NCBI GenBank assembly: GCA_036743655.1
Contig: DAINPB010000004.1
Span: 15,788-79,787 of the forward strand
Reading direction: 5' to 3'
Source of the DNA: Candidatus Saccharimonadota bacterium
Lineage (GTDB): Bacteria; Patescibacteriota; Saccharimonadia; Saccharimonadales; UBA4665
Length of the DNA: 64,000 nucleotides
The notes below the pieces were generated by a model. That model was not told where the DNA came from. It made no database searches and saw only the letters and a list, made by a program, of their open reading frames with translations. A program made the position numbers and the translations under genes. This document shows positions 16,087 through 58,437 of the stretch, in pieces (position 1 is the first letter of the stretch; each line of letters begins with the position of its first letter).

Positions 16087-16161
16087 TCCGGGGTAGCTCA
16101 GCGGTAGAGCGGGGCGCTGTTAACGCCTAGGTCGCTGGTTCGAATCCAGTCCCCGGAGCCA
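16087..16161 (+). tRNA. tRNA-Asn (anticodon GTT), CCA encoded
   Basis: Cloverleaf folded by hand: acceptor TCCGGGG/CCCCGGA, D arm GCTC/GAGC, anticodon stem GGGCG/CGCCT with loop CTGTTAA, T arm GCTGG-TTCGAAT-CCAGT, discriminator G, then CCA. Confidence 0.93.
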
Positions 16162-40669: not shown

Positions 40670-42484
40670 ATGTCGAATTTTGAGGAAGGTGCCTCTGAAC
40701 TAGGTCGTTTGGACGGCCCGAATATTTTAGATGGAGACACGCTGTTTGCTCTCTTGGCGTCCTCCGGAATTGCTGAGTTGAGCTCCGGTGACGCCCTGAC
40801 GACAGTCTACGTCGATAGCACGCCCAAAGACGAGGGGGAGCTATACGTGAACCCTGACGGAAGAACCGTGCACGGCTTTATGACGAAATTCTCACCCGAC
40901 TTTACTGGCTGGGGGCAGGGCGATCTGGTGCGCGCACGTTTTGTGATTAATCCAAAGGCCGACCAAGTATCATTGCTCGTGGCCGATAGTTTCGTCGGCG
41001 ATATCCGTCACGCTGACGAATTTGTACTAGAAGGCGATCAGGCAGAATTAGCAAAATTACGCGGCCTCGGCATTACCGAGCTTGACCTAGACGTGGAAGT
41101 TACCAGCGAGGAGCGCGAGTACATTGTTAGTAATATGTTCAAATACTCAGCCCGGGTTGATCGGATAAATAACATCCTGACAGCCTGGGACGGCAAGAGC
41201 GAATTAACTCCGGGCCAGGTTCTCCTACAAGGCGAAGTAACAGAGTATATTGCAGACGAACGTGGTGCTCCTGACAATAAGAAGCCCACGCACATGACGC
41301 TAGACGTCAACGGAGAGTCCGTAGTCATCAATATGAACGCTGGGCACGTTCGGTACGAAGGCGGCCCTTACGAGAAACTCCTCAGCGACGTTCCTGAAAT
41401 CGGAGACGTCGTCCAGGTGCTCGCCCACTACAATCCGGATTTCAAACAGCAGCCACACTACAGACCGCGGGTAAGCGCCTTCGATGCTAGCTGGTGCAGG
41501 TCTACGTACTGTTTGGCGGTTAACGCTGAGCGGGCAGCGGAGCAAGAAGCGTTCAGCGTGGCGTTAGATAATGCGATTGATGAGCTGGCAACAATCACTG
41601 AGCATCCAAGATTTCGCCAGCAATACGGCAGAATTATTGAGCAGTCACTCGTTGATTCAGCTGGCAAGGACTGTCGTAGCCGTGCCCAGCAAGAACGTAT
41701 GGCCAAGCTGGTGGAGGCTATATTCCCCGAAGATCAACACCTGAGAAAACCACTACTTGCCATCGGCAAAGACTTTCCGTCAGTCTATGCCACCTTCAAG
41801 GAGTCGTACGGCATCGATATCTACTCGATGAGCGTGTCAGAGGTATGCGCTGTCGTCATGGGAATCGCCCAAGATCCCTCAAAACTCGATCCTAAAACCA
41901 GGGAGACCGATTACCTTTTCCGGGTTGTTAACGATGCGCTATCGCCAGAGCAGATGAGCACGCTTGCAACAACCATACTAAGCACGTACTACCCGATCAC
42001 CGTAAGGAAGGATGCCTCGTACGACAAAGACTATACGCCAGAGCACGGGAAAGTACCCTACTGCCAGCGTTCCTTAACCGAAGCAGCAATTTCGCACCTT
42101 GGTTCAACTGGGCTGGAACGTGATATCGAGACACTCACCGCATTGTTCGAAAGCTCAATAGCAAACGATCAATTCTCCCAAATCCGCAGAGAAAACGACT
42201 ATATGACCGCGATTACTAATAGCCTCCACCACGCCCTCTGCGAAACAGGCACTTGGTCGGCCGACAAGGGTTGGCATGGGGTTACTGATATTGACGTTTT
42301 GCAGCGCTTCCAGCAGGTAGTTATCCCTCGATTGACCGCCGCCATGGGCATCTACACGGCAAAGGTTAATGCGCTCCCTTATGTGAACGACGAAAAGTAC
42401 GCCGCGTTCAACCACAGCTTCACGCTGGATCACTTGCAGAAAATGGTAGAACTCGCCAGCGAACTTGAAGCGCTAGCTGCCTAA
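40670..42484 (+). CDS. large hypothetical protein (604 aa)
   Basis: ORF track. No motif recognised. Confidence 0.65.
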   Translation: MSNFEEGASELGRLDGPNILDGDTLFALLASSGIAELSSGDALTTVYVDSTPKDEGELYVNPDGRTVHGFMTKFSPDFTGWGQGDLVRARFVINPKADQVSLLVADSFVGDIRHADEFVLEGDQAELAKLRGLGITELDLDVEVTSEEREYIVSNMFKYSARVDRINNILTAWDGKSELTPGQVLLQGEVTEYIADERGAPDNKKPTHMTLDVNGESVVINMNAGHVRYEGGPYEKLLSDVPEIGDVVQVLAHYNPDFKQQPHYRPRVSAFDASWCRSTYCLAVNAERAAEQEAFSVALDNAIDELATITEHPRFRQQYGRIIEQSLVDSAGKDCRSRAQQERMAKLVEAIFPEDQHLRKPLLAIGKDFPSVYATFKESYGIDIYSMSVSEVCAVVMGIAQDPSKLDPKTRETDYLFRVVNDALSPEQMSTLATTILSTYYPITVRKDASYDKDYTPEHGKVPYCQRSLTEAAISHLGSTGLERDIETLTALFESSIANDQFSQIRRENDYMTAITNSLHHALCETGTWSADKGWHGVTDIDVLQRFQQVVIPRLTAAMGIYTAKVNALPYVNDEKYAAFNHSFTLDHLQKMVELASELEALAA

Positions 42485-43817: not shown

Positions 43818-43852
43818 TTTGCAAAAACAGCTTTTTGTGGTATTTTATACTT
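43818..43852 (+). promoter_or_regulatory. stereotyped promoter M26
   Basis: TTTGCA, 17 nt (..ctttttGTGG), TATTTT, 6 nt, ATG. Confidence 0.55.
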
Positions 43853-44146
43853 ATGAGCACTCCTGAGCGATCGGCCAACGGCGATAATGCGGATATCAGG
43901 CCCTTGGCCGACTTCGAACGGCGACGCCTGTCGCTTGGTGACTGCCCAGAACCAGTACACCAAGCGCTCGACATCCTCCACGAAAAAGCAGATGAGTTGG
44001 ACTTACAAACCAGCCGAACCGAAATAGTTGCCGCACTTATAATGGACGTGATGCGGAATGATGCCGACGCCAACTATATGGCCAGGCTAATCCTGCGACA
44101 TCGTAAAATACGCATTCGCTACCTTGATCCCGGCGAAGAAGATTAG
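43853..44146 (+). CDS. hypothetical protein (97 aa)
   Basis: The ORF track starts at a TTG at 43835 (MWYFIL is the translated -10 box). The ATG at 43853 is preferred. Confidence 0.55.
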   Translation: MSTPERSANGDNADIRPLADFERRRLSLGDCPEPVHQALDILHEKADELDLQTSRTEIVAALIMDVMRNDADANYMARLILRHRKIRIRYLDPGEED

Positions 44147-44158
44147 GCAACAGTTCGT

Positions 44159-44193
44159 TTTATATTTACGTTGTTATATGGTATTTTAATCTT
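44159..44193 (+). promoter_or_regulatory. stereotyped promoter M27
   Basis: atATGGTATTTT, 6 nt, ATG. The -35 is weak. Confidence 0.45.
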
Positions 44194-44616
44194 ATGAGCC
44201 GCGAGGACTACCCAGAGAAGGAGCCACCCGTCGGGAGAGAGCATCCTGAGTTCGTGGCAGCCTATGCGCACATCAATCGTGATACAGGGGAGTCCTGTAC
44301 GGTGCCTTTCCCAGCCGCCGTATTCGGTATTCACCACGAGTTCTTCGGCGTCGGCAAGGTTATCGGGAGCATTGAAGATAACCCCGTTATAGAGGTAGAA
44401 GATCGGGATGACGGCGAGCCATACTGCATTATGGGTTACGACTCCTGGTGGACACACCCCGTACCACAAGAGATATTGGACAAAATGGCCAGCGGCGAGC
44501 TGACTATCGACAGCGTCGCCTCGTACAAGACAAGACTGGATGATGACCTGGAAGCGACAGAGAGCGCCGACAGGGACTTCCTCGAAGATTGCGATATCGA
44601 TCCCGATTCGCTGTAG
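44194..44616 (+). CDS. acidic hypothetical protein (140 aa)
   Basis: ORF track. Confidence 0.55.
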   Translation: MSREDYPEKEPPVGREHPEFVAAYAHINRDTGESCTVPFPAAVFGIHHEFFGVGKVIGSIEDNPVIEVEDRDDGEPYCIMGYDSWWTHPVPQEILDKMASGELTIDSVASYKTRLDDDLEATESADRDFLEDCDIDPDSL

Positions 44617-44622
44617 CTGCAC

Positions 44623-44685
44623 GCCCGCTCTTGAGGAGCACCTATTTACAAATATGGTTATATATGGTATTTTTAGCTTAATATT
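44623..44685 (+). promoter_or_regulatory. upstream module M28
   Basis: CGCCCGCTCTTGAGGAGCACC, TTTACA, 17 nt, atATGGTATTTT, then 12 nt to the ATG of the helicase. Confidence 0.5.
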
Positions 44686-47600
44686 ATGTCTGTTGAAGCC
44701 CCTGTTTATGATACCGAACGTGCTGCGCTACGCGAAAACGTAGCACTATTCATTCAAAGTAACCTACAGCCCGTCGGCCACATCCTTACAGAACCCGACG
44801 AAGAGCAAGAATTTGAATTCCGTGATTACCAACTCGATGCCTGGGAAGCGCTGTGGGAAGCCCGCGAACAGGGAGAAATGAGCGCCCTGGTAACGCTCGC
44901 CACCGGTCTTGGCAAAACATCGGTGGGAGTGTTCGATGTCATAAAGTTTCGTCAGGAGCTCAGGGAGCAAGAAGGCCGCGATCCAAAGGTGCTTTTCGTC
45001 TGTCATCAGGACAAGATTTTGGAGCAGGCTGCCAAGCGTTTCAACAGATTCGCGCCGGATTTATCGCAAGGCTACTATACCGGGGAGACGAAAGATCGGG
45101 ATCAAGACATAACCTTCGGAACATTTCAGTCACTTGAGAAGAATTTGGATCAGTTTGACCCGTTTGAGTTTGACTATATCGTCTACGACGAGGCCCACCA
45201 TAGCCAAGCAGATACATGGCACCGCGTGGTCAAGCACTTCAATCCAACTTTCCAACTGGCGCTCACTGCCACCCCTGAGCGCATGGATGGGCTAGAGATC
45301 AAGGATTTGTTCGGCCGAGAGGTGTACGCCAAGGGGTTGGGCGAAGCTCTGGCTGAAGGATTGCTGGCAGATATTGATTACCACATTGTGTTTGACGAGG
45401 CAGTCAAGCAGGCACTGGAGGCAGGCTTTCATCCGAAGAACCTTAGAGAGCTCAAAGAGCTGCTGGAAGTACCGCGCCGTAACGATGTGATTGCCAAAAA
45501 CATCCGAGAAGAGATGGAAAAAATCGGTGCCGAGAGCGCCAAAACAATTATTTTTTGTAACGATATTGCGCACACCCAAGTGATGGCCAAATTGCTCGGG
45601 GGCAAGGCCTACCACTCTGATATGAAGCGTAGTGAGCGAGATGAAGTATTGGATGATTTCCGCGACGGCGACTTGCAGATTATCTGTGTTAGAGATATGT
45701 TCAACGAAGGCATCGACATTCCGGAAGCAAACCTTCTGGTATTCCTGCGTAGCACCCAGAGTAAAACTGTGTTTGAGCAACAGCTCGGCAGAGGCCTACG
45801 TAGGCACAAGGACAAGACGCATGTCAGCGTACTCGACTTCGTAGGCAACATAAAACGACTGCAAGAGATATTGGATTTGAGCAACGCCATATCGGCGTTA
45901 ACCTCCGAGAATGACCTTGATAAGCTTGTATCGGATGGCGATAGACCGCGCGAGGGCGGGAGCTTCAACGTCAGCACTAATCACACGAACTTTGACTTTG
46001 ATAAAATGGCGATTGATATTCTTAACACCTATCAAAGCCTTATCTTCGAGCCTGCGCCCGAAGGCTATGTGAGCGTCGACGCCTTTGCCCGTGAACTCGG
46101 CGTCACCTACAGCACGTTGAAAGCACTTATCGCGCACCATCAGATAGAAACCGGAAGGCATCGGTTCAAGACGAATGTTGGAACCAGTTTGAGTCCCGAT
46201 GCCCAGGATTACATACGAGAGCTTGGCGGCTTTCTTGATCCGGCACCTGAGGGATATCTCAGCGCGCATATGTTCGGAAAGGAATTTGGCATAACTGCTC
46301 CTTATCTCATGAAAGCGCTCAAAGGGCACAAAATTCCCGTAGAAAGACACCGGTTTGGCTCTATGGCTTCCATAAGTTTTAGTCCGGAAGCCCAGAAAAT
46401 GGTACGAGAACAGGTTACTTTTATCGGGAAAGCGCCAGAAGGCTATGCCAGCGTTCAGGCCTTCGCAGATGCGCTCGGCATCAGTCATGGGTACCTGACA
46501 AGAGCTATTGCCAAGCATGGCGTCCCGACCGGTAGCCATAGATTCGGTGTTGCACCGGCCGTGAGCTTAAGCCCCGAGGCACAGGAACAAATTATTGACC
46601 TGAACATTGTTGGCGTGCCGCTGCCCGAGGGGTACGCCAGTGTCACCGCGTTTTCAAAAGCCGTCAACACAACCTATCAGACTCTTATGAAGCGCATGAA
46701 GGAGCTTGGCATCAAACCAGGCAGATATCATCATGGAACAGGTTTTGCTTCTGGATTAAGCCCCGAAGATCAAGAGAAAATTAGACAGAAGTATTATCCA
46801 AACCTAAAACCTGCCCCTGAAGGCTATGTTAGTGTTAGCGAATTCAGGCGCAGAGTGGGCGGCATAGGCAATACGGCGCTGCTCAAGATTATGTCCGAGA
46901 ATGACATAGAGCCAGAGCTCGTTCGATTCCGAGGAAATAGTCAAGGAAAAGGTCTGAGCCCTGAGGCTCAAGAGCGACTGAGCAAACTCGTAAACGCAGC
47001 CCCGCCATTGCCGGAGGGCTATATCAGCATCACCATGTTTGCAAAACAAATAAAATCATCCGTGCCGACCCTCACGCAGCTCATAGAGGCGAACAGCGTT
47101 GAGACGGGTGAGCATCGGCTCAGGACACACACCGTAATCAGCTTAAGTCCTGAGGCTCAAGAAAAAATACATGAGGTCAGAGCGAAGGGCGTTCCAGTTG
47201 CCCCTGAAGGCTACATGAGCGTACCGGTCTTTGCGAAGACCTTAGGGGTAGCTCCGAAGACAGTTTTCAATTTGGTCAAGAAACATGGTGTCGAAACCGG
47301 CGAGCATGTGTTCGGCATCAACAGAGTAGGTGCCAGCCTAAGCCCAGAAGCACAGGAACAGATACGCACCATACGCGAAGCGGGCATTCTGCCTCCGCCA
47401 GCAGGCTACAAGAGCGTATCGGCCGTTGCAGAAGAGCTGGACACGCATTGGAGTCTTTTGACTAAGCTTATTAAGAAGCACAAGATCGCAACAAGCGAGC
47501 ATCAGTTCAACCGAGTCGGGCTGAGCCTCAGCCCTGAAGCGCAAGAAGCGCTCCGGCCTCTCGTCCAAACCCATAAAGTCCCTAACGCCCCTAAGGGCTA

Positions 47601-47964
47601 CGTAGCTATCAGCGAATTTCTTAGGACACATGAGGTAGGGAGCGGAAGGTTGAACAGCATTATGGAAGAAAACAAAATCGAAGCTCGCGCCTACAAATTT
47701 GATCGCGTTAGAGGCAAGGGACTCAGCCCCGCCGACCAAGCAAGGATACTGCAGGTTTTGGATGAACAAGCGGCGCCAGAAGGCTACGTAAGTGCGGCTG
47801 TCTTGGCACAGGAACTCCACACTACTCGTGAGGTTATTGAAAAGCTCGCGGGAAAACACGGCATCGAAACGAGTAGGCACTTCCACACAACCAGGCTGAC
47901 TACCAGCCTCAGCCCCGGAGCACAACGCCAAATTCGCGAACTTCGCGCTGGTCAAACTCAGTAG
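44686..47964 (+). CDS. SF2 (DEAH, type III restriction Res-like) helicase fused to ten tandem HTH-like repeats
   Basis: Helicase motifs I ATGLGKT, II YDEAHH, III TATPER, V-VI EGIDIPE...QQLGRGLR. The C-terminal 640 aa is built from 63-65-aa repeats. Confidence 0.85.
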   Translation: MSVEAPVYDTERAALRENVALFIQSNLQPVGHILTEPDEEQEFEFRDYQLDAWEALWEAREQGEMSALVTLATGLGKTSVGVFDVIKFRQELREQEGRDPKVLFVCHQDKILEQAAKRFNRFAPDLSQGYYTGETKDRDQDITFGTFQSLEKNLDQFDPFEFDYIVYDEAHHSQADTWHRVVKHFNPTFQLALTATPERMDGLEIKDLFGREVYAKGLGEALAEGLLADIDYHIVFDEAVKQALEAGFHPKNLRELKELLEVPRRNDVIAKNIREEMEKIGAESAKTIIFCNDIAHTQVMAKLLGGKAYHSDMKRSERDEVLDDFRDGDLQIICVRDMFNEGIDIPEANLLVFLRSTQSKTVFEQQLGRGLRRHKDKTHVSVLDFVGNIKRLQEILDLSNAISALTSENDLDKLVSDGDRPREGGSFNVSTNHTNFDFDKMAIDILNTYQSLIFEPAPEGYVSVDAFARELGVTYSTLKALIAHHQIETGRHRFKTNVGTSLSPDAQDYIRELGGFLDPAPEGYLSAHMFGKEFGITAPYLMKALKGHKIPVERHRFGSMASISFSPEAQKMVREQVTFIGKAPEGYASVQAFADALGISHGYLTRAIAKHGVPTGSHRFGVAPAVSLSPEAQEQIIDLNIVGVPLPEGYASVTAFSKAVNTTYQTLMKRMKELGIKPGRYHHGTGFASGLSPEDQEKIRQKYYPNLKPAPEGYVSVSEFRRRVGGIGNTALLKIMSENDIEPELVRFRGNSQGKGLSPEAQERLSKLVNAAPPLPEGYISITMFAKQIKSSVPTLTQLIEANSVETGEHRLRTHTVISLSPEAQEKIHEVRAKGVPVAPEGYMSVPVFAKTLGVAPKTVFNLVKKHGVETGEHVFGINRVGASLSPEAQEQIRTIREAGILPPPAGYKSVSAVAEELDTHWSLLTKLIKKHKIATSEHQFNRVGLSLSPEAQEALRPLVQTHKVPNAPKGYVAISEFLRTHEVGSGRLNSIMEENKIEARAYKFDRVRGKGLSPADQARILQVLDEQAAPEGYVSAAVLAQELHTTREVIEKLAGKHGIETSRHFHTTRLTTSLSPGAQRQIRELRAGQTQ
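46051..47961 (+). repeat. ten in-frame tandem coding repeats (period 186-195 nt) within the helicase gene
   Basis: Each unit follows (A)PEGY-x-S-x3-F-x3-LG-x12-20-(IE)TGEHRF-x6-8-SLSPEAQE-x-I. The PEGY codons start near 46054, 46243, 46432, 46621, 46813, 47008, 47200, 47395, 47587 and 47773. Confidence 0.8.
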
Positions 47965-50255: not shown

Positions 50256-50744
50256 TTAGACGGTGTTCTCCTGCAGAATTTCTTTGAGTTTGTAGCCGTA
50301 GTCGGATAGGACTTTTTTGGTGCGCGCTATGAGCTCTTCGTCTTGCACGGATTTATGGATGTAATCATCTGCTCCCTGTTGCTTGAGGAGGGCTTCTGAT
50401 TCCTGGGACATGTCGGTGCTCGTCAGAATAATAATTGGAATGTGCTTGGTTGGCTGTTCGGCCTTGAGCCTGGCGGTGACCTCATAGCCGTCCATGATTG
50501 GCAAGGTGAGATCGAGTAGAATAATATCTGGTTGGAGACGACGAGCTGTTTCGCGGCCTTCGTTTCCGTCATGGGCATACAGCACTTCGAAGCCGGCTTT
50601 TTGTAAATATCCTCCGAAGAGCCTGAGCAGCGCTTCATCGTTATCAATCAATAATGCGTGGACTTGCTTGGAGCCGTTCATCAGTATACGTGCGGCGCCG
50701 CCAGTGTTCTGTTGAGAGTTGAGGTTAGGTGCGTCTTCCATCAC
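50256..50744 (-). CDS. stand-alone response-regulator receiver protein
   Basis: DD...ILLDLTLPIMDG...ILTS...K pattern. No output domain. Confidence 0.85.
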   Translation of the reverse strand: MMEDAPNLNSQQNTGGAARILMNGSKQVHALLIDNDEALLRLFGGYLQKAGFEVLYAHDGNEGRETARRLQPDIILLDLTLPIMDGYEVTARLKAEQPTKHIPIIILTSTDMSQESEALLKQQGADDYIHKSVQDEELIARTKKVLSDYGYKLKEILQENTV

Positions 50745-51187
50745 GATGGTGACTTATTTACGACTGTCCAGTACAGGCCGGCATCAGAAATAGCTTGCAT
50801 GAAATTATCAAACTCGATTGGTTTTTGAATAAAGCTGTTCGCGCCCAACCGATAACATTCTTGGATGTCTTGCGCTTCTTGGCTGGAGGTAACTATTACA
50901 ATGGGGATGGTTTTGGCCTTGTTATTGGTTTTTATTTTCTTGAGCACTTCCAGGCCGTCTATTTTCGGGAGCTTCAGGTCTAAGAAGACGACTTTTGGCG
51001 GAGATTTTGTGCCCCGAGAAGCGTATGAGCCTTGGGAAAAAATGAAATCAAGTGCCTCCTGACCGTCACGCACCACATGCAGGGCACTATCCAAATGGTT
51101 CTTACTGAGAGCGCGTAGCGTTAGCTCCACATCATTAACATTATCTTCAACCAGTAAAATTTCGCACAAACTAAGATCGGTCGTCAT
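50741..51187 (-). CDS. stand-alone response-regulator receiver protein
   Basis: LLVEDN...VFLDLKLPKIDG...VTSS...KP. 4-nt overlap with the next gene. Confidence 0.85.
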   Translation of the reverse strand: MTTDLSLCEILLVEDNVNDVELTLRALSKNHLDSALHVVRDGQEALDFIFSQGSYASRGTKSPPKVVFLDLKLPKIDGLEVLKKIKTNNKAKTIPIVIVTSSQEAQDIQECYRLGANSFIQKPIEFDNFMQAISDAGLYWTVVNKSPS

Positions 51188-51226
51188 GGTATCTGTAATC
51201 CTTCCTGCGATAATGAAAAAATCGAT

Positions 51227-52759
51227 TCATGGCGCAACTCCACTTAGACGAGGAAAGGAGAAATAAAAAGTCGCACCCTTGTCGACCTCGCCCTTAGCCC
51301 AAACCCTACCACCATGCTTGGCAACAATGCGCGCCACAATGGCCAGGCCGACGCCGGTACCTTCGAAATCTTCCGGGCTGTGCAGTCTTTGAAATACCCC
51401 AAACAATTTGTCCACGTACTTCATGTCAAAGCCAACTCCATCGTCGTTGACATAGTAGATCTTTTCATCGCTCGTCGTTTTGCCGCTAACAGTGATGGTG
51501 GCTATGAGTTTTTTCTTAGTATATTTAACGGCGTTGGCGAGTAGGTTGACCCACACCTCTCGAATAAGCGAGGCATCAACTTGTGCGTTGGGCAATGCTT
51601 CACAGCAGAAGCGTATGTCCCGCCCGGGATTAGCAAGCTTGAGATCATCAAAAACCGTCTTCGCCAGCTCGGTCATGTTAGTATCTTCTGCTTTGATTGG
51701 CTGGCGACCTAGGCGAGAAAACGCCAGTAAGTCATCGATCAGTTCTCCCATCTGCTCTGTGCTATGACGAATTGTCGCAATCACGTGCTGGCCATCATCG
51801 TCCAACTTATCGGCATAATCTTCACTCAAAATTTTGGAGAAGCCATCAATGGCGCGCAGCGGTGCCCGTAAATCGTGTGAGACTGAGTACGAGAAGGCTT
51901 CCAGCTCTTTGTTAGCGGCTTGCAGGGCAGTGACCAATTGCAGCTTGGCCTCGGCGGCCTCTAATTTTTTGCGCTCCGTGACATCCCGTGCTATAGTCGC
52001 GGCACCGACAATTGTGCCTTTTGCGCTCCTGATCGGCGAGATTGAGAGTGAAACAGTAATGCGTGTACCGTCTTTTCTGACGCGCACTGTCTCAAAATGT
52101 TTAATCGACGTTCCGCGCCGAATTTTCTTGAGAATCTCCGGCACCTCATCAGGGTGATCCGGCGGCACGATCGTGCTTATGGAGTTGCCGATCATTTCGT
52201 GCGGAGCGTAACCGTACATTCTCTCTGCGCTTCTATTCCAGCTGGTCACCACGCCATCCAAAGTTTTCCCGATAATGGCGTCCTCAGAAGATTCGACAAT
52301 TGCGGCTAATGCTGCTTGTTCTTTGTCATACGCCGCTTCCTTCGCCGTCAGCTTCTTGCTATCAGCAATGCTGAGCGAGAGTATCAGTAGGCCTTCCGGT
52401 ATAGGATGCATTGTCACTTCGAACCATTCTTTGCTGGCATCAGGGAAAGTAAACTCATACTCCATATTGTGGGTAGTGCGTTGCTCCATGCAGTCTCGAA
52501 TCCTAGCAAATAGTTCAGTCGACTCAATGCCCGGATAACTTTCCATCATGGTGTGCCCCATGAGTCGTTGTTTGTCGATGCGATCTTGCTTGGAGGCTAC
52601 ATCATTTATGTATAAGTATCGATAATTGGTGTCGATTATCTGGCAACCTTCTAGGATGTTGTCGAGTATATGCTCGTACTGCAATCGTAAAACAGTACTG
52701 CCTTGCTGCGGAAGCGTCGCTGCTGCTTCATCCGGTTCAGTTACGAGTGTGTTCACCAT
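51227..52759 (-). CDS. cytoplasmic PAS-PAS sensor histidine kinase
   Basis: Two PAS-like regions. H-box SHDLRAPL. HATPase N/G boxes (NAVKYT, DDGVGF, GTGVGLAI). Confidence 0.9.
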   Translation of the reverse strand: MVNTLVTEPDEAAATLPQQGSTVLRLQYEHILDNILEGCQIIDTNYRYLYINDVASKQDRIDKQRLMGHTMMESYPGIESTELFARIRDCMEQRTTHNMEYEFTFPDASKEWFEVTMHPIPEGLLILSLSIADSKKLTAKEAAYDKEQAALAAIVESSEDAIIGKTLDGVVTSWNRSAERMYGYAPHEMIGNSISTIVPPDHPDEVPEILKKIRRGTSIKHFETVRVRKDGTRITVSLSISPIRSAKGTIVGAATIARDVTERKKLEAAEAKLQLVTALQAANKELEAFSYSVSHDLRAPLRAIDGFSKILSEDYADKLDDDGQHVIATIRHSTEQMGELIDDLLAFSRLGRQPIKAEDTNMTELAKTVFDDLKLANPGRDIRFCCEALPNAQVDASLIREVWVNLLANAVKYTKKKLIATITVSGKTTSDEKIYYVNDDGVGFDMKYVDKLFGVFQRLHSPEDFEGTGVGLAIVARIVAKHGGRVWAKGEVDKGATFYFSFPRLSGVAP

Positions 52760-52927
52760 AAGCTTTTCTCTTGTTTTGACGCATATGTTAGCCGTACTTA
52801 ATCGCAGATTACCATGCAGAAGTTAAATGCGCATTAAATATACGCGCATTAAAAATCTGCGGCACAACCACACAACTGTGTTGTTAGCACCACTAAATTT
52901 GTTACGTTTGAGCTAGTTCAGTTCTGG

Positions 52928-53344
52928 CTATACGATAGGTCGCTGTGGACTGCTGGCCGGACCAGACGCTGCCAAAACCTGAGTAATAGTCTTCGATAAA
53001 TCACGCAGTGTAATGTTCGCCTTGGTTATGTAGCCACTGACGCCGAGGTTCTTGGCAGAGTCGACATCCTGCTTACTTTCCAGATTACTGATGACAATTA
53101 CTGGGGTCTTCTTATTGAGTTTGAGCCGCAATTCTTGCAGGACATCAAAGCCGTTTTTGATCGGCAAAATAATGTCGAGCAAAATTAAATCAGGATCTTT
53201 GCTCCTGATAACTTCTAAAGCTTCCTGGCCGTCGTTGGCAGTAAATATTTGGTATCCTAGGTCGCTAATTCGGCGTACCAATACTTTTTGAATTGACAAT
53301 TCGTCTTCGGCGACGAGAACTTTTTTGGTTGCAATAGTTGACAT
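52928..53344 (-). CDS. stand-alone response-regulator receiver protein
   Basis: VAEDE...ILLDIILPIKNG...ISNL...TKA. Confidence 0.85.
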   Translation of the reverse strand: MSTIATKKVLVAEDELSIQKVLVRRISDLGYQIFTANDGQEALEVIRSKDPDLILLDIILPIKNGFDVLQELRLKLNKKTPVIVISNLESKQDVDSAKNLGVSGYITKANITLRDLSKTITQVLAASGPASSPQRPIV

Positions 53345-53417
53345 AATTATAGTTTCGGCGTTAGCTTAATGAATAGTGCTTAGCATAAGCAGTATACAAC
53401 AAAAGGCAAGTGTGAAA

Positions 53418-54911
53418 ATGAAAAAGCATACAAGCATTGTGGTGCGGGTGGTCGGCGGTTACCGCTTCAATCCCTTCAATCGTTTGGCCGTCATAGCGCT
53501 GGCAACAAACGCATTATATCTCGTCTGGTTAGCCTTGAATGTGCATGGAAGTCTCGGTGTTTTATTCTTCTTCTTGGAGTGTTTAGTATCTCTAGTCTTG
53601 GTCGTCTTTACCTTCAATCATTGGACTAGAAGTTATCAATTATTGGGCGGTGACTATTCTATGCGCGCCTCGGTCGACGTGTTCATACCGACTGTCGACG
53701 AGCCACTGAGCATGCTCAGAAAAACCGTCGAAGCAGCCGTCAACATCGACTATGCACGCAAAACCGTGTATGTACTTGATGACGGTGCACGTGAGTCAGT
53801 ACGCAAACTTGCCGAAGCATACGGCTGCACATATCTAGCGCGTACTAAGACGCCTGACAAAAAATACAAGGCCGCCAACCTCAACCACGCCCTAGAACAT
53901 TCAAACGGTGACTTCGTTCTGACAATTGATGCCGATAATATTGTGGCGCCGACTATTCTGGATGATCTGATGGGGCATTTCAGTAATGACAAAATTGCCA
54001 TTGTCGCATCACGCCAAGTTTTCACGGTCGAGAAAGATGACTTCAACCACGACCACCTATTCTACCTCTATATGCAGAGTGGCAAAAACAGCGACGGCGC
54101 TGCTATTAGTTGCGGGTCGGGTGTTGTCTATCGGCGGGCGGCACTGAATGATATCGGCGGCTTCAGTGAGTGGAACCTCGTCGAGGATTTGCACACCACC
54201 TACGTCATGAACAGTCGCGGCTATCGCTCGGTCTATGTTTCGCAAGCCTATGTTCGGGGGCATGCGCCGACTGACGTGAGTATGATTTACAAGCAGCGCG
54301 GCACCTGGGCGCTCGACACGCTCCGCATTTTCTTCTGGCAGCATCCATTGCTACGCAAAGGCCTAAGTTTCCGGCAACGGCTACACTATTTCGAAATGGG
54401 CTACTGCTATCTTGTCAGCGGCATTATTCTGCCGGCGATTTATATCATCAACTTCTACGTACTATTTAGCGCAGCGCCAATGCTTTCGGGAGGCTGGTGG
54501 TATGTGGCGTTTCGATTGCCGGCTTTGATTGGTATGTTGGCGTTTTTCGGACGTTTCAGCCAAGGGCAGTTGACGTCACGAGTGTGGTTTGGTCTGTTTC
54601 CGGTCTATGCCAGGGCCACGGTATTGGCGCTGCTCCACCGGCGCACCAAGCCGGTTTACCGCGTGACGAGTAAGATCGATACTGGCCGCCGGGAGGTGCA
54701 TTTATTAATTCCGCAAATGACGTTCATGGTGATTGGCTACAGCAGCCTGGTCTTTCATCTCGCACACTATGGCGCCACTAGAATGTTCTGGTTCGGCTCG
54801 TTCTGGACAGTGCTCATGAGTTACTGGCTGTGGCCAATTGTCAAAATGGGTTTTGCGCCCAAAACTCCTAAGCCCGAATTCGCTGCCGAGCCCCAAATTG
54901 TCACAGGTTAG
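53418..54911 (+). CDS. membrane-embedded GT2 processive glycosyltransferase (cellulose-synthase-like)
   Basis: D, D, D, Q(R)xxW pattern: VLDDGARE, TIDADN, EDL and QRGTWALD. TM helices lie before and after the catalytic domain. No PilZ domain recognised. ATG at 53418 preferred to the GTG at 53376. Confidence 0.7.
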   Translation: MKKHTSIVVRVVGGYRFNPFNRLAVIALATNALYLVWLALNVHGSLGVLFFFLECLVSLVLVVFTFNHWTRSYQLLGGDYSMRASVDVFIPTVDEPLSMLRKTVEAAVNIDYARKTVYVLDDGARESVRKLAEAYGCTYLARTKTPDKKYKAANLNHALEHSNGDFVLTIDADNIVAPTILDDLMGHFSNDKIAIVASRQVFTVEKDDFNHDHLFYLYMQSGKNSDGAAISCGSGVVYRRAALNDIGGFSEWNLVEDLHTTYVMNSRGYRSVYVSQAYVRGHAPTDVSMIYKQRGTWALDTLRIFFWQHPLLRKGLSFRQRLHYFEMGYCYLVSGIILPAIYIINFYVLFSAAPMLSGGWWYVAFRLPALIGMLAFFGRFSQGQLTSRVWFGLFPVYARATVLALLHRRTKPVYRVTSKIDTGRREVHLLIPQMTFMVIGYSSLVFHLAHYGATRMFWFGSFWTVLMSYWLWPIVKMGFAPKTPKPEFAAEPQIVTG

Positions 54912-55039
54912 CCCCCATTAACCTAGCGACTTCTTAATAAGCATTTAATATTTGTATAGTATTCTGCGAGCAGCCCAGCTTACATGAATGATCAGACAAA
55001 GCTCTACGTTCGCACCTGCGGGCCCTAAAGTGGGATGGT

Positions 55040-56206
55040 ATGCAAGATTTATTAGAGAATAAAACACCTGCGGTGGGAGCCGAAAACATCTGTGGTCACA
55101 GTCTCGACGAAGAAACAGCAACGGCAGTCTTACAATCAGCCGGCCATGGCCTGATAGTATCAATCGGTACCGATCGAGGCGGTCGAATAACGTACGTCAA
55201 CGAAGCCTTTGAAGCAATGACTGGCTGGAAGGCCAGCGAGGTACTGGGCAAAGACCTGGTTGAGGCCATGCCGCGACAGGGCAGAAACGGCGAACCCGTG
55301 CCCTACGAAGACCAGATTATGACCAGCATCCTCGACGGGGAAAAGGTTGTAGCCGATTTGTACGACCCTTTTTACTTCGTACGCCGCGATAAAACCAAAT
55401 TCCCGGTTGCCAGCATCATAAGCCCGTTGCGACTAGATAATCAGATAATCGGCACCGTGGAAACATTCAGAGATATCACCAAAGAAAGTGCAGCCGACAA
55501 AGTCAAAACCGAGTTTGCATCTCTGGTATCTCATCAACTCCGCACGCCATTCTCCACCATCAACTGGTACATCGAACTGCTGCTCTCCGGTGATGCCGGC
55601 AAACTGAGTCCTAAGCAAACGGACTACCTCAACGAAGTCTACCAAGCCAGCAAACGAATGGTCGATCTGGATAATTTACTCTTGAATAGCTCGAGGATCG
55701 AGATGGGGCTGTCCACCGGTGATACTGAGCAAGTTAATATTGTCTCCTTGGCCGAGGTTATATTAAAGGAGCGCAGGCTGGAGAGCCGCCAAAAGAAACT
55801 CACCATTCGTAAGAAATTTGACAAAAACATCCCCCTAATCCGAGCAGACTCTAAGCAGCTCTTCATGATCTTCCAAAACTTACTTTCCAACGCCATCAAG
55901 TACACGCCTCAAGGTGGAAAAATAACCCTGGGCATAGCCTGCAAAAAAAGCATTGTATCGATCACTGTCGCCGACACCGGTATTGGCATTCCAGAAGGCG
56001 ATCAGTCGAAGATTTTTAGCAGATTCTTCAGAGCCGAAAACGCTAAAGCTGAGCAACAGGAAGGCGTTGGAGGGCTCGGGCTCTACATCCTAAAAGCCAT
56101 TGTCGACCAAATGGATGGCAAGATCTGGTTTGAATCGCAGGAGCATCGAGGTACGACCTTTCACATAACGTTTCCCCTAAAGCCGAAGGATGCAGTACAT
56201 GCCTGA
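55040..56206 (+). CDS. PAS sensor histidine kinase
   Basis: PAS region. H-box SHQLRTPF. N/G boxes NAIKYT, DTGIGI and GGLGLYI. Confidence 0.9.
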   Translation: MQDLLENKTPAVGAENICGHSLDEETATAVLQSAGHGLIVSIGTDRGGRITYVNEAFEAMTGWKASEVLGKDLVEAMPRQGRNGEPVPYEDQIMTSILDGEKVVADLYDPFYFVRRDKTKFPVASIISPLRLDNQIIGTVETFRDITKESAADKVKTEFASLVSHQLRTPFSTINWYIELLLSGDAGKLSPKQTDYLNEVYQASKRMVDLDNLLLNSSRIEMGLSTGDTEQVNIVSLAEVILKERRLESRQKKLTIRKKFDKNIPLIRADSKQLFMIFQNLLSNAIKYTPQGGKITLGIACKKSIVSITVADTGIGIPEGDQSKIFSRFFRAENAKAEQQEGVGGLGLYILKAIVDQMDGKIWFESQEHRGTTFHITFPLKPKDAVHA

Positions 56207-56600
56207 CACCAAGCGGCATTTTACCCTGTTATTGATAGAGGACGAGGGGCCACTTCGGGCGATCATCAAGTCTAAGCTAGAAACAGAGGGCTTCACGGTA
56301 GCAACCGCCAGAACCGCCCAACAAGCTCTGGACTATCTGCGAGAAAAGATCAAAGTGGACGGAATTTGGCTTGATCACTACTTGTCCAACGAAGAAAGTG
56401 GCCTGGACTTTGTCGTGAAGCTAAAAAAAGAGCCGCGATGGAAGAACTTACCAGTATTCGTCGTCTCGAATACGGCATCGCAGGAGACCCTTGAAGCCTA
56501 CACCAACCTAAAAGTCCGAAAACGCTACAACAAAGTAGACTATAGGCTCGATCGCATTGTCAAAGATATCAAAAAAACGCTGACGGACGGAGCATCATGA
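56190..56600 (+). CDS. stand-alone receiver-domain protein (divergent)
   Basis: LLIEDE...IWLDHYL...VVSN. Overlaps the kinase gene by 17 nt. Confidence 0.7.
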   Translation: MQYMPDTKRHFTLLLIEDEGPLRAIIKSKLETEGFTVATARTAQQALDYLREKIKVDGIWLDHYLSNEESGLDFVVKLKKEPRWKNLPVFVVSNTASQETLEAYTNLKVRKRYNKVDYRLDRIVKDIKKTLTDGAS

Positions 56601-56974
56601 ATACCGCCAAAAGAATACTTATTATCGAAGATGAGATACCGCTGTTGAACATACTGAGCAGTAAGCTCCTGCACGAAGGTTTCGTTGTTCTGGAAGCCCA
56701 AAACGGCAAAGACGGGTTGGCAATGGCGCTCTCTAAGCATCCGGATCTTATTTTGCTCGATATTGTCTTGCCAATCATGGATGGGGTCACTATGCTCAAG
56801 CAGTTGCATACTGACTCGTGGGGGAAGCGCGCCAAGGTCATCATGCTAACCAATTTGAGCGATAATCAAAGCGTCGTGCAAGCCCTAGCCCTTGGCTCTC
56901 ACGATTTCCTAGTGAAGTCTGATTGGAAGATTGAAGATATTGTGAGAGTAATCCATGATGAATTGAAGACGTAA
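56597..56974 (+). CDS. stand-alone response-regulator receiver protein
   Basis: LIIEDE...ILLDIVLPIMDG...LTNL...VKS. 4-nt overlap with the previous gene. Confidence 0.85.
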   Translation: MNTAKRILIIEDEIPLLNILSSKLLHEGFVVLEAQNGKDGLAMALSKHPDLILLDIVLPIMDGVTMLKQLHTDSWGKRAKVIMLTNLSDNQSVVQALALGSHDFLVKSDWKIEDIVRVIHDELKT

Positions 56975-57116
56975 TCTTTATGCGCCCGGCAACTCCTGGC
57001 TGTCGACCAGTAGGCTGGCTCAACAGCTCAGGAACACCTCGGATGACAAAAGACGTCAGCACCGCAACATTGCTACTCTGGGAGTATAAGCCTATAGTTA
57101 GATTAGGAGCCGCACC

Positions 57117-57761
57117 ATGCCTTCGGTCACAGATAAAGTAGATCGATACTTTTCCAAATATCCCAAGCGTATCTATCCTAAGGGGCAGATCCTGGTTTTT
57201 GCCGACGAGAACCCCGATAACATTTTCTACATAGTCCGTGGTCAGGTTCGCAAGTACGATGTCACCTATAGAGGCGATGAGGTTATTGTAAATATTTTCA
57301 AGCCCCCGGCTTTCTTTCCCATGTCATGGGCGATCAACCATACGCCGAACCGCTATTTTTACAAGACGGAGACCGAGACGGAAATCCATGCCGTTCCAAC
57401 TAATGATGCTCTGGAGTTCCTAAAAGCCAATCCGGATGTCATGCTGGACTTGCTTAGCCGTATTTACAGAGGTATGGACGGCTTACTCGGTCGGGTGGTT
57501 CACCTTATGTCCGGGACTGCCAGAAGTCGACTTATCTACGAGTTAATTATCGAGTGCCGACGTTTTGGCGCAGCAAGTGGCAATAAATATACGCTCAGCA
57601 TTACCGAAACCGACCTTGCGGCCCGTTCGGGCCTGTCAAGAGAAACCATCAGTCGAGAAATGCGCAAGCTGAAAGACCGCGGCTGGATTATCATAGCCAG
57701 TAAGTCAATCACGATTACCGATATTTCAGCTCTGGAAAAAGCCCTTGGTGGTGAGCTTTAA
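57117..57761 (+). CDS. Crp/Fnr family transcriptional regulator
   Basis: N-terminal cNMP-binding-like beta-roll and a C-terminal HTH (LSRETISREMRKLKDRGWI). Confidence 0.85.
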   Translation: MPSVTDKVDRYFSKYPKRIYPKGQILVFADENPDNIFYIVRGQVRKYDVTYRGDEVIVNIFKPPAFFPMSWAINHTPNRYFYKTETETEIHAVPTNDALEFLKANPDVMLDLLSRIYRGMDGLLGRVVHLMSGTARSRLIYELIIECRRFGAASGNKYTLSITETDLAARSGLSRETISREMRKLKDRGWIIIASKSITITDISALEKALGGEL

Positions 57762-58294: not shown

Positions 58295-58437
58295 GCTGTA
58301 ATTCTCCTTATTCTACTACTGTTAGTTTGAGCTTTTTACTGATGAAAATCTATCGGCTTTATCACAGCCGCTGTGTGACTTGAATCAATGCTCACCCATT
58401 TAACAATGATTTAACATATTAAATGTTGGGAGTGTCA

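What the first reader, a model, noticed from the sequence alone, without database searches (positions are those of the whole stretch)
44686..47964. SF2 helicase carrying ten tandem 63-65-aa HTH-like modules
After a complete DEAH helicase core (about 450 aa), the protein consists of ten consecutive repeats with period 186-195 nt. The repeat consensus is APEGY(V/A)S(V)xxFAxxLGVxxxTLxxLIxKHxIETGEHRFxxxxxxSLSPEAQExI.

The (Y-x-S/T-x3-A/F-x3-LGV-x4-L) part resembles excisionase/MerR-type HTH_17 DNA-binding domains. The invariant SLSPEAQE linker is unfamiliar to me. The repeats are diverged at DNA level, so the array is old and maintained.

A helicase with ten sequence-reading heads suggests recognition of an iterated DNA or RNA target. 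The window itself contains a 25-fold iterated motif. Any link between the two is speculation.
Basis: partly seen in the sequence, partly recalled or inferred. Interest (0 to 1): 0.65.

Follow-up and report, generated by a model that had tools for sequence, protein, structure and literature searches.

The report
DNA motor with ten-module winged-helix tail
A Saccharibacteria-type gene encodes a restriction-enzyme-like DNA motor with no nuclease, fused to ten diverged copies of a small MerR/excisionase-type DNA-binding domain; this architecture is widespread in that lineage but has not been described or studied.

Summary
Window 44686-47964(+) is one 1092-aa ORF. It has an intact SF2 DEAH motor (aa 43-400), a family-conserved connector (to aa 456) and ten tandem 62-65-aa repeats (aa 457-1092). 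The repeats average 35% aa and 46% nt identity.

AlphaFold2 (pLDDT 88) gives strand-helix-turn-helix-β-hairpin-helix. Foldseek matches RacA-DNA (TM 0.69), phage Xis and MerR/excisionase HTHs. "SLSPEAQE" is not a linker: it is the hairpin end plus the N-cap of helix 3.

The motor is closest to the dsDNA translocases SauUSI and HsdR, but the protein has no nuclease, no SauUSI-type target-recognition domain and no conserved partner gene.

The array is basic (pI 9.4), under purifying selection, positionally orthologous across relatives, and has a tightly fixed 64-aa pitch.

The repeat matches no dedicated Pfam family, yet it occurs in about 2,100 protein clusters. All named carriers are Saccharibacteria. 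It sits on two helicase types and on a novel 275-aa N-domain. Sister helicases carry unrelated arrays (PF18780, DUF4817) in the same position.

Best reading: a DNA-anchored translocase. The suggested link to the window's iterated motif is not supported, because that motif is a dispersed extended -10 promoter element.

Novelty: new variant of a known kind. Interest about 0.55.

The parts
44645..44673 (+). Putative promoter of the gene: -35-like TTTACA (44645-44650), 17-nt spacer, extended -10 TG (44665-44666) + TATTTT (44668-44673). The ATG follows 12 nt later, so the leader is very short.
   Evidence: Consensus scan; sequence read; the same TGGTATTTT element recurs before neighbouring genes. 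Consensus match only; not experimentally shown.
44686..47964 (+). Complete ORF, 1092 aa + stop: SF2 motor + connector + ten winged-HTH modules
   Evidence: identical gene called on an independent assembly; full-length AF2 model with mean pLDDT 86.3.
44686..44811 (+). N-terminal extension, aa 1-42, low-confidence helices; too short to be a nuclease domain
   Evidence: pLDDT 41-76; no family hit; 63% identity to the orthologue versus 90% for the motor.
44812..45885 (+). SF2 DEAH ATPase/translocase motor, aa 43-400 (RecA1 = ResIII 43-199; RecA2 = Helicase_C 282-373)
   Evidence: Pfam; motifs intact; best relatives are SauUSI 7clg (E 3e-50) and HsdR 3h1t; PADLOC mREase_IV hit covers the motor region only.
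45886..46053 (+). Connector, aa 401-456, including a β-hairpin + helix with the family-wide FDFDK motif (F436, F438)
   Evidence: AF2 elements E427-430, E434-438, H440-453; F436 98% and F438 100% conserved, also in relatives that carry other arrays.
46054..46242 (+). Repeat 1 (aa 457-519)
   Evidence: 84% identity to the orthologous repeat in L082.
46243..46431 (+). Repeat 2 (aa 520-582)
   Evidence: 78% to the orthologue.
46432..46620 (+). Repeat 3 (aa 583-645)
   Evidence: 70% to the orthologue.
46621..46812 (+). Repeat 4 (aa 646-709)
   Evidence: 77% to the orthologue.
46813..47007 (+). Repeat 5 (aa 710-774)
   Evidence: 62% to the orthologue; sub-type shared with repeat 9 (41% identity).
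47008..47199 (+). Repeat 6 (aa 775-838)
   Evidence: 53% to the orthologue.
47200..47394 (+). Repeat 7 (aa 839-903); the unit modelled on its own
   Evidence: AF2 pLDDT 87.7 with a 134-unit alignment; Foldseek.
47395..47586 (+). Repeat 8 (aa 904-967)
   Evidence: 59% to the orthologue.
47587..47772 (+). Repeat 9 (aa 968-1029)
   Evidence: 40% to the orthologue, the least conserved.
47773..47961 (+). Repeat 10 (aa 1030-1092), ends at the C-terminus
   Evidence: 52% to the orthologue.

Best explanation
The gene encodes a stand-alone, nuclease-less, ATP-driven double-stranded-DNA translocase of the type I / type IV restriction-motor kind. A C-terminal array of ten MerR/excisionase-type winged helix-turn-helix modules, set at a fixed 64-residue pitch, holds the motor on DNA.

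Proposed mechanism: the basic array lies along a long stretch of DNA. Helix 2 of each module sits in a major groove and the K/R-rich hairpin wing sits on the backbone or minor groove, as in RacA. This forms an anchor or loading platform. The acidic motor, joined through the conserved FDFDK connector, then hydrolyses ATP and pulls duplex DNA relative to that anchor. The outcome would be loop extrusion, displacement of bound proteins, or remodelling of the nucleoid. The principle is the same as in type I restriction enzymes (a bound specificity core plus the HsdR motor) or Chd1/ISWI (a motor plus a SANT-SLIDE DNA-binding domain), but within one polypeptide and without cleavage.

Shown here: the domain architecture, intact ATPase motifs, fold class of the module, regular pitch, charge pattern, purifying selection, absence of a nuclease domain and of a conserved partner gene, and lineage distribution.

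Inferred: DNA binding by the modules, dsDNA translocation, and the anchor-and-reel outcome.
For: Motor:
- Closest solved relatives are dsDNA translocases: SauUSI 7clg (E 3e-50), HsdR 3h1t (E 2e-25; rmsd 3.9 A over 366 columns), XPB, RadD, LlaBIII and Snf2 remodelers.
- The best PADLOC hit, mREase_IV (E 6e-56), covers the motor segment only.
- SauUSI's ATPase was shown to drive translocation on DNA (PMC7913695).
- Motifs I-VI are intact.

Modules:
- The AF2 single unit has pLDDT 87.7, and all ten units have the same fold in the full-length model, pLDDT 86.
- Foldseek gives RacA-DNA TM 0.69 with probability 1.0, plus Xis, RdfS, GlnR/MerR and the small-terminase DNA-binding domain. Phage MerR/excisionase/PrtN/Cox proteins reach TM 0.74.
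- The element order is the same as in RacA, whose helix 2 enters the major groove and whose wing contacts the minor groove and phosphates. Ten RacA domains coat DNA continuously.
- The array has pI 9.4 (net +12) while the motor has pI 4.8.
- Over 912 units, K/R is enriched at columns 13, 23-24, 35, 37 (76%), 39 and 41, and the wing is nearly free of acidic residues.
- The pitch is tightly fixed: median 64 aa, IQR 64-65.

Selection: pN is 0.215 in the array and 0.057 in the motor, with pS saturated. Positional orthology holds for R1-R6 and R8.

Family logic: sister helicases carry other small putative DNA-binding arrays (PF18780, 3-9 units; DUF4817 HTH) in the same position.

Context: there is no nuclease or methyltransferase partner in six neighbourhoods.
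Against: - No experiment or complex model shows DNA binding or translocation.
- Coordinates and PAE were not available, and pTM is only 0.52, so the inter-module geometry is unknown.
- Individual repeats R1 and R3 are net acidic (-2).
- The IF2 N-domain, whose function is not DNA binding, is also a good fold match (TM 0.66).
- No module reaches any Pfam HTH threshold on its own.
- The biological role (loop extrusion or protein displacement) rests on analogy only. The neighbourhoods give no functional hint.
Confidence: 0.5

Rival explanations
1. Sequence-specific composite-site reader. Each of the ten modules reads its own short subsite, so the array recognises a long or iterated DNA target and loads or orients the motor there. 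FtsK-gamma reading KOPS, or a zinc-finger array, would be the analogy. It differs from the best explanation mainly in specificity.
For: - The modules are not interchangeable. Positional orthology is strong for R1-R6 and R8, with diagonal identities of 50-84% as row maxima.
- The columns most variable between repeats but less so between orthologues are 18-21 and 23 (start of helix 2) and 40-44 (wing loop). By analogy with RacA these are the DNA-facing elements.
- The fixed pitch suggests register with a periodic substrate.
Against: - No tandemly iterated DNA target exists in the window.
- The recurrent TGGTATTTT motif is dispersed, one copy per promoter.
- Repeat number varies from 2 to 10 or more among close relatives, and the distal repeats drift fast (40-52% identity). 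That is hard to reconcile with one conserved long site.
- Lower entropy among orthologues may simply reflect their shorter divergence time.
- RacA-type domains bind largely through phosphate contacts and coat DNA non-specifically.
Confidence: 0.25
2. Defence or restriction-like sensor. A SauUSI/HsdR-type motor is used in anti-phage or anti-plasmid immunity, with the HTH array as the foreign-DNA sensor and a nuclease supplied in trans.
For: The best PADLOC matches are the type IV and type I restriction motors and PbeA. The motor also matches phage helicase family phrog_16 (E 2e-74). Genomes carry several paralogues, as is common for defence genes.
Against: - The matches cover only the motor (223-571 of 945). 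There is no PLD or PD-(D/E)xK nuclease and no SRA-like target-recognition domain.
- No nuclease, methyltransferase or other defence gene is adjacent in six contexts, and one homologue lies between ribosomal-protein operons.
- The motor is strongly conserved (90% aa identity to the orthologue), and the array order is stable rather than diversifying.
Confidence: 0.1
3. The array is not a DNA binder. It would be a protein- or RNA-interaction scaffold (IF2-N-like), and the enzyme would act on RNA or RNPs, for example in ribosome biogenesis in a lineage with few such factors.
For: The IF2 N-terminal domain is a fold match (4b48, TM 0.66, probability 0.99). Pfam IF2_N gives faint hits in homologues. 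Weak Pfam DEAD and DEAD-box PDB hits exist for RecA2.
Against: - All top motor relatives act on dsDNA. DEAD-box matches are 20 or more orders of magnitude weaker.
- Most fold matches are DNA-bound or DNA-binding MerR/Xis domains.
- The wing is K/R-rich and free of acidic residues.
- The alternative arrays on sister helicases are homing-endonuclease-associated or HTH modules.
Confidence: 0.1
4. The array targets the window's recurrent TGGTATTTT 'junction' motif, which the first reader raised as a speculative link.
For: The motif is over-represented: 11 sites at up to 1 mismatch against 3.2 expected. It also lies upstream of the helicase gene itself.
Against: The motif has the form and position of an extended -10 promoter element (TGnTATTTT, 8-12 nt before the ATGs, with a -35-like hexamer at 17 nt), so sigma/RNAP explains it. 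The sites are single and dispersed, kilobases apart. That cannot engage ten modules spaced 64 residues apart.
Confidence: 0.03

Closest known systems
SauUSI (type IV ATP-dependent restriction enzyme; PDB 7clg) and type I HsdR motors (PDB 3h1t; EcoAI family)
   Same: It has the same SF2 DExH motor sub-family (phmmer E 3e-50 and 2e-25; Foldseek top hits; NCBIfam restrict_EcoAI E 4e-39 but far below that model's cutoff). All ATPase motifs are present. The motor is joined to a separate DNA-recognition part.
   Different: It has no PLD or PD-(D/E)xK nuclease, no SRA-like/DUF3427 target-recognition domain and no HsdM/HsdS partners. The DNA-recognition part is instead a ten-fold wHTH array. The gene stands alone in non-defence contexts.
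RacA DNA-binding domain and the MerR / TnrA-GlnR / excisionase (Xis, HTH_17) winged-HTH class
   Same: It has the same element order: helix-turn-helix, two-strand wing, C-terminal helix. TM is 0.65-0.74 and the profile hit to RacA has E 0.005. The wing is basic. RacA domains also line up many-fold along DNA.
   Different: - It falls below every Pfam/NCBIfam HTH threshold (HTH_17 17.8 bits against a cutoff of 27).
- It has its own signature: PEGY before strand 1 and LSPEAQ capping helix 3.
- It is covalently iterated 2-14 times at a fixed pitch, not oligomerised through a coiled coil or on DNA.
- It is fused to enzymes.
Sister helicases with PF18780 (HNH_repeat, homing-endonuclease-associated repeat) or DUF4817 HTH arrays
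   Same: They share the motor and the FDFDK connector (46-58% identity over the motor) and carry a C-terminal tandem array of 3-9 small modules with a period of about 61 aa in the same position. Two proteins carry both repeat kinds.
   Different: The repeat families are unrelated at the sequence-profile level (hhalign probability 5%). The PF18780 type is spread over Patescibacteria and other phyla, whereas the wHTH type is found in Saccharibacteria.
Snf2-type remodelers with C-terminal HTH-like DNA-binding domains (Chd1, ISWI SANT-SLIDE) and FtsK with its winged-helix gamma domain
   Same: The design principle is the same: a dsDNA translocase tethered to or steered by an HTH-type DNA-binding appendage. 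Snf2 motors appear among the fold matches. This is a functional analogy drawn from established knowledge of those families.
   Different: The motor sub-family differs (not Snf2, not FtsK). There are ten modules instead of one or two, and there is no nucleosome or KOPS counterpart known. This is analogy only, not homology of the tails.
Modular DNA-reading repeat arrays (TALE, zinc-finger arrays)
   Same: It is a tandem array of small DNA-binding-type modules at a fixed pitch, with scaffold positions conserved and putative DNA-facing positions variable.
   Different: The repeats are only 35% identical, so they are not near-identical units with a hypervariable di-residue. The fold is different, and no recognition code or per-module base specificity has been shown.

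Membership tests
SF2 helicase/translocase superfamily (ResIII + Helicase_C) | Two RecA-like domains with motifs I (Walker A), II (DExH), III, V and VI | tested here: met
   Pfam ResIII 129 bits and Helicase_C 64 bits, both above cutoff. GLGKT, DEAH, TATP, NEGxD and QxxGRxxR are present and 96-100% conserved. AF2 pLDDT is about 90 over the core.
Type IV restriction enzyme, SauUSI type | N-terminal PLD-family nuclease domain | tested here: not met
   Only 42 residues precede the motor. There is no nuclease family hit, and the PADLOC match covers profile positions 223-571 of 945 only.
Type IV restriction enzyme, SauUSI type | C-terminal modification-sensing target-recognition domain (SRA-like/DUF3427) | tested here: not met
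   The C-terminus consists entirely of ten wHTH repeats. There is no such Pfam hit.
Type I restriction enzyme R subunit (HsdR) | PD-(D/E)xK nuclease domain, and hsdM/hsdS genes alongside | tested here: not met
   There is no nuclease domain. NCBIfam restrict_EcoAI scores 135 bits against a cutoff of 550, and hsdR 46 against 285. No methyltransferase or specificity genes appear in six neighbourhoods.
MerR/excisionase-type winged HTH (Pfam HTH_17 / NCBIfam excise; HTH clan) | Sequence-profile membership at the curated threshold | tested here: not met
   HTH_17 scores 17.8 bits against 27. TIGR01764 excise scores 19.3 against 28.8. Single repeats reach only E 0.005-0.2 for any HTH family.
MerR/excisionase-type winged HTH (Pfam HTH_17 / NCBIfam excise; HTH clan) | Fold: helix-turn-helix followed by a two-strand wing, packed with an N-terminal strand | tested here: met
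   AF2 elements are E6-7, H8-15, H19-29, E34-38, E42-47 and H49-60. Foldseek probability is 0.99-1.0 and TM 0.62-0.74 to RacA, Xis and MerR-type proteins.
MerR/excisionase-type winged HTH (Pfam HTH_17 / NCBIfam excise; HTH clan) | [quoted passage not shown] | not testable with these tools
   There is only indirect support: a basic array and a K/R-rich, acid-free wing.
PF18780 HNH_repeat (homing-endonuclease-associated repeat) | Profile similarity to the repeat found on sister helicases | tested here: not met
   hhalign of the 134-unit profile against a 352-unit PF18780-type profile gives probability 5% over 16 columns. There is no PF18780 hit on the window protein.
Snf2 family remodelers | Full SNF2-related N-lobe with Snf2-specific insertions | tested here: inconclusive
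   The SNF2-rel_dom hit is 35 bits, above the cutoff of 24.9, but covers only profile positions 1-170 of 290. Snf2 structures rank below SauUSI, HsdR, XPB and RadD.
TALE-like programmable repeat arrays | Near-identical repeats whose variation is confined to a few specificity residues | tested here: not met
   Mean pairwise identity is 35% (range 19-51%) and variation is spread over many columns.

The most novel reading that the evidence does not exclude
The PEGY...LSPEAQ module array is a natural modular DNA-reading device. Each winged-HTH module, held at a fixed pitch, would read a few base pairs through the hypervariable start of helix 2 and the wing loop. Arrays of 2-14 modules would then specify long composite sites that direct different effectors to defined chromosomal positions in Saccharibacteria. 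The effectors seen here are two helicase types and a novel 275-aa N-domain. That would be a new recognition scaffold alongside zinc fingers and TALEs, and a single-chain anchor-plus-motor loop extruder.
Probability: 0.1. Interest if true: 0.85.

Novelty: new variant of a known kind. Interest (0 to 1): 0.55.

Why it matters
Saccharibacteria have genomes of about 1 Mb, yet they keep one to several proteins of roughly 1,000 aa of this design under purifying selection. The function is therefore likely important, and it is entirely unstudied.

The protein joins a restriction-type dsDNA motor, stripped of its nuclease, to a very long DNA-binding array. If it anchors and reels DNA, it would be a minimal single-polypeptide model for loop extrusion or protein-displacement machines in bacteria.

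The repeat is a large family without a dedicated Pfam model (about 2,100 clusters at 50% identity). It is used as a plug-in array on at least three different N-terminal effectors. Defining it would improve the annotation of thousands of 'hypothetical' or generic 'DEAD/DEAH helicase' entries.

If the modules prove to be individually sequence-specific, the array would interest people who engineer DNA-binding proteins.

Tried and rejected
1. The profile search of the 63-column repeat alignment in the word-indexed protein database found nothing. This is a tool limitation for short profiles, because the exhaustive search and the whole-array query both worked.

It returned only 32-40%-identical motor-only relatives from many phyla. 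So it gave no species-level picture of the array and did not identify the window's genome.

3. Sequence searches of the repeat against the PDB gave only marginal hits. With the 10-unit profile they were MyD88 and L20, which I rejected as chance matches to the LSPEAQ segment. With the deeper profile RacA came first at E 0.005.

4. I considered that aa 427-453 (hairpin + helix) is a degenerate half-repeat and rejected it. Its FDFDK motif is conserved in relatives that have other arrays, so it is part of the family core.

5. I considered homology between this repeat and PF18780 and rejected it (hhalign probability 5%).

6. A defence-island reading was rejected for lack of any partner gene in six contexts.

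7. Literature searches for the architecture and for PF18780 found nothing relevant.

8. PHROGs and PADLOC gave no family for the repeat or for the 275-aa N-domain of the second architecture.

9. Model coordinates and PAE are not exposed. Inter-module packing could therefore not be analysed, and only DSSP strings and pTM 0.52 were available.

10. dN/dS could not be computed as a ratio because synonymous sites are saturated. I report pN against pS instead.

Full report
**1. Observation**

The ORF listing shows a single open frame at window 44686..47964 (+) of 1092 aa. No competing long ORF is better supported. The identical protein was called independently on another metagenome contig (ENA ERZ27294354).

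Anchoring on P-x-G-Y and (L/F)-S-P finds ten units. They start at aa 457, 520, 583, 646, 710, 775, 839, 904, 968 and 1030 and are 62-65 aa long, i.e. 186-195 nt.
- Alignment gives invariant P2, G4, Y5, S47, P48 and Q51.
- The consensus is APEGYxSVxxFAxxLGxxxxxLxKLxxxHxIETGxHRFxxxxGxSLSPEAQExIRxL.
- Mean pairwise identity is 35% for protein and 46% for codon-aligned DNA.
- Tandem Repeats Finder reports no DNA array there.
- A profile of repeat units scores this ORF at E 5e-226 with ten domains in a six-frame search, and nothing else in the window scores.

**2. The motor**

Pfam places ResIII at aa 43-199 and Helicase_C at aa 282-373. Motifs I, II (DEAH), III, V and VI are intact and 96-100% conserved in 58 homologues.

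By sequence, the nearest solved protein is 7clg (E 3e-50). It is followed by an HsdR fragment (3h1t), XPB and RadD.
- 7clg is SauUSI, whose SF2 ATPase drives directional movement on duplex DNA and resembles the type I and type ISP motors (PMC7913695).
- A Foldseek search with the full-length model ranks the same proteins first, then LlaBIII and Snf2 remodelers.
- The best PADLOC hits are type IV and type I restriction motors, but only over the motor segment, positions 223-571 of 945.
- NCBIfam restriction and repair equivalogs are all far below their cutoffs.

Only 42 low-confidence residues precede the motor. There is no nuclease domain and no modification-sensing domain. The protein has a restriction-type motor but is not a restriction enzyme.

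A connector (aa 401-456) contains a β-hairpin plus helix with an FDFDK motif. This motif is conserved across the whole helicase family, whatever follows it.

**3. The repeat module**

Sequence methods give only sub-threshold hits scattered over many HTH families: MarR_2, HTH_50, HTH_Tnp_ISL3, NUMOD1, HTH_17 and excise. A 134-unit profile finds RacA as its best PDB match at E 0.005.

AlphaFold2 on repeat 7 with that alignment is confident (pLDDT 87.7). It gives strand 6-7, helix 8-15, turn, helix 19-29, hairpin 34-38/42-47 and helix 49-60. The full-length model (pLDDT 86.3, pTM 0.52) reproduces this fold ten times.

Foldseek against the PDB returns:
- the RacA-DNA complex (TM 0.69, probability 1.0);
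- mycobacteriophage Xis;
- a small-terminase DNA-binding domain;
- RdfS excisionase;
- GlnR and MerR;
- the Mu transposase wHTH;
- the IF2 N-domain.

The viral library returns MerR-type, excisionase, PrtN and Cox proteins with TM up to 0.74. Foldseek E-values are modest (0.002-0.2), as expected for a 65-residue query, but the hits are unanimous in fold class.

RacA has the same order of elements. [quoted passage not shown] Ten RacA domains coat three 14-mers continuously (PMC4914108).

The 'SLSPEAQE' string is the end of the second wing strand plus the Ser-Pro-Glu N-cap of helix 3. The true linker is the roughly ten residues between helix 3 and the next PEGY.

**4. Properties of the array**

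- **Charge.** The array is basic (pI 9.4, net +12) and the motor is acidic (pI 4.8, net -31).
- **Charge pattern over 912 units from all carriers.** K/R is concentrated at columns 13, 23-24, 35, 37 (76%), 39, 41 and 55. The wing is almost free of acidic residues. Acidic residues cluster at column 3, in the turn after helix 2, and on helix 3.
- **Pitch.** Module-to-module spacing is tightly fixed and class-specific. The median is 64 aa (IQR 64-65) on helicases and 70 aa (IQR 68-70) on the non-helicase carriers. This argues for a regular geometry and against floppy beads on a string.
- **Positional orthology.** Against a 65%-identical orthologue, repeats R1-R6 and R8 are each most similar to the repeat at the same index (50-84%), so the array order is ancient.
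- **Selection.** Against orthologue DNA, synonymous sites are saturated (pS at least 0.75). Against L082, pN is 0.057 in the motor and 0.215 in the array. Conservation falls from R1-R4 (70-84% identity) to R9-R10 (40-52%).
- **Variable columns.** The columns most variable between repeats are 9, 18-21, 23 and 25 (start of helix 2), 40-44 (wing loop) and the linker. By analogy with RacA, the helix-2 and wing positions face DNA. Whether this reflects per-module specificity or merely exposed surface is not decided by these data.

**5. Distribution and family logic**

The helicase family is large: 2,707 hits at E no greater than 1e-5.

Among the best 120 hits:
- 47 carry this repeat, in 1 to 10 copies. 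The six closest carry 10, 10, 10, 10, 10 and 9.
- 69 instead carry 3-9 units of the unrelated PF18780 'homing endonuclease associated repeat' at the same place.
- Two carry both kinds, and others have DUF4817 HTHs.

An exhaustive profile search finds the repeat in 2,091 representative clusters: 583 at E no greater than 1e-10 and 196 at E no greater than 1e-30.

Of the 135 new top hits:
- only 31 have a helicase, and these include a second, distant helicase type;
- 75 share a novel N-terminal domain of about 275 aa, with motif LVCDEEGN(A/V)T(Y/F)VF, followed by 4-10 repeats; this domain has no Pfam, PHROG or PADLOC match.

Every carrier that has a source name is from Saccharimonadales, Ca. Microsaccharimonas or Ca. 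Saccharibacteria. They are labelled 'hypothetical protein' or 'DEAD/DEAH box helicase'. The motor alone has 32-40%-identical relatives in many phyla.

**6. Genomic context**

Neighbourhoods are not conserved.
- Here the neighbours include a TauE-family exporter and a convergent SulP sulfate permease, followed by two-component system genes.
- In homologues they are metal homeostasis genes, a PIN protein plus a tandem 906-aa paralogue, a peptide-binding protein and a histidine kinase, or ribosomal-protein operons.
- No nuclease, methyltransferase or defence gene recurs.
- Genomes often hold two paralogues close together.

The gene has its own promoter-like site: TTTACA, 17 nt, then TG-n-TATTTT ending 12 nt before the ATG.

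**7. The 'iterated motif'**

The only recurrent short motif I found is TGGTATTTT(A/T). It has 11 sites at up to one mismatch against 3.2 expected.

At three consecutive genes, including this one, it lies 8-12 nt upstream of the ATG. This is the form of an extended -10 element with leaderless or short-leader transcripts.

The sites are single and kilobases apart. They cannot be a register-matched target for ten tethered modules, so the speculative link is not supported.

**8. Interpretation**

The best-supported reading is a nuclease-less, HsdR/SauUSI-type dsDNA translocase anchored or loaded on DNA by a regular ten-module winged-HTH array. It would then move DNA relative to that anchor.
- **Shown:** architecture, motif integrity, fold class, regular pitch, charge pattern, selection, distribution, and the lack of partner genes.
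- **Inferred:** DNA binding, translocation and the biological outcome.

Rivals are a sequence-specific composite-site reader (0.25), a defence sensor with a nuclease in trans (0.1), a non-DNA scaffold or RNA enzyme (0.1), and promoter-motif targeting (0.03).

**9. Novelty**

The parts belong to known superfamilies. Three things are, as far as two literature searches and the family libraries show, undescribed:
- the repeat family itself;
- its 2-14-fold fixed-pitch arrays;
- its fusion to a restriction-type motor without a nuclease, and to two other effectors.

I rate this a new variant of a known kind with moderate interest (0.55). The interest would be much higher if the modules prove individually sequence-specific.

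Noticed in passing
window 43838-43847, 44179-44188, 44665-44674 (and 8 further sites: 11636, 16701, 17677, 23127, 33342, 34915, 38365, 39470): The recurrent motif is TGGTATTTT(A/T), with 11 sites at up to 1 mismatch against 3.2 expected. At three consecutive + strand genes it lies 8-12 nt upstream of the ATG. This suggests an extended -10 promoter with leaderless or very short-leader mRNAs as the common gene-start architecture of this genome.
   Followed up: partly
P0123-P0255 (e.g. P0149, P0128, P0124); loci L085 8001-10262 and L086 8001-10094: A second, more numerous architecture carries the same repeat. It has a novel, conserved N-terminal domain of about 275 aa (motif LVCDEEGN(A/V)T(Y/F)VF; no Pfam, PHROG or PADLOC hit) followed by 4-10 repeats at a 70-aa pitch. 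Sources annotate it 'hypothetical protein' in Saccharibacteria. The neighbourhoods are uninformative.
   Followed up: partly
L001 17195-19282 (paralogue, cut by the locus end); L082 11357-13783; proteins P0121, P0122, P0134: Genomes carry further repeat-bearing helicases close to the orthologue. L082 has a tandem 906-aa paralogue with 7 repeats, 78 nt downstream. L001 has a 1065-aa ResIII/Helicase_C protein with HTH-type hits 6 kb away. A second, distant helicase type (E about 1e-32 to this motor, 5-9 repeats; e.g. P0121) also exists among the representatives.
   Followed up: partly
P0028, P0031, P0087, P0094 and 65 other homologues; P0037, P0044, P0052: Sister helicases with the same motor and FDFDK connector carry C-terminal arrays of 3-9 PF18780 'homing endonuclease associated' repeats (period about 61 aa) or DUF4817 HTHs. 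P0017 and P0053 carry both PF18780-type and wHTH-type units. This suggests cassette-like exchange of array types.
   Followed up: partly
window 43853-44146 (+) and 44194-44616 (+): Two small ORFs (97 and 140 aa, the second very acidic) lie directly upstream of the helicase on the same strand. Each has its own TGGTATTTT element and neither has a Pfam match. They are not found upstream of the orthologues examined. The ORF listing reports the first from a TTG at 43835, but the ATG at 43853 fits the promoter and the independent gene call.
   Followed up: partly
window 40670-42484 (+): A 604-aa ORF has no Pfam family at E no greater than 1e-3. It was also called as a gene on the independent contig (L087 2267-4081).
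   Followed up: no
window ~50256-58300 (L087 11853-19358): There is a dense cluster of signalling genes: two PAS histidine kinases, about six stand-alone receiver-domain proteins, a cNMP-binding Crp-type regulator and a family-2 glycosyltransferase. This is unusual in density for a small genome.
   Followed up: no
window 16087-16158 (+): A single tRNA gene is the only Rfam match at gathering threshold in the 64-kb window.
   Followed up: no
window protein repeats R5 (aa 710-774) and R9 (aa 968-1029): R5 and R9 form a sub-type: 41% identity to each other against 19-29% for R9 with most other repeats. They share 'RGKGLSP' and 'SEF...IM.EN' features. This hints at an ancient block duplication within the array.
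   Followed up: no
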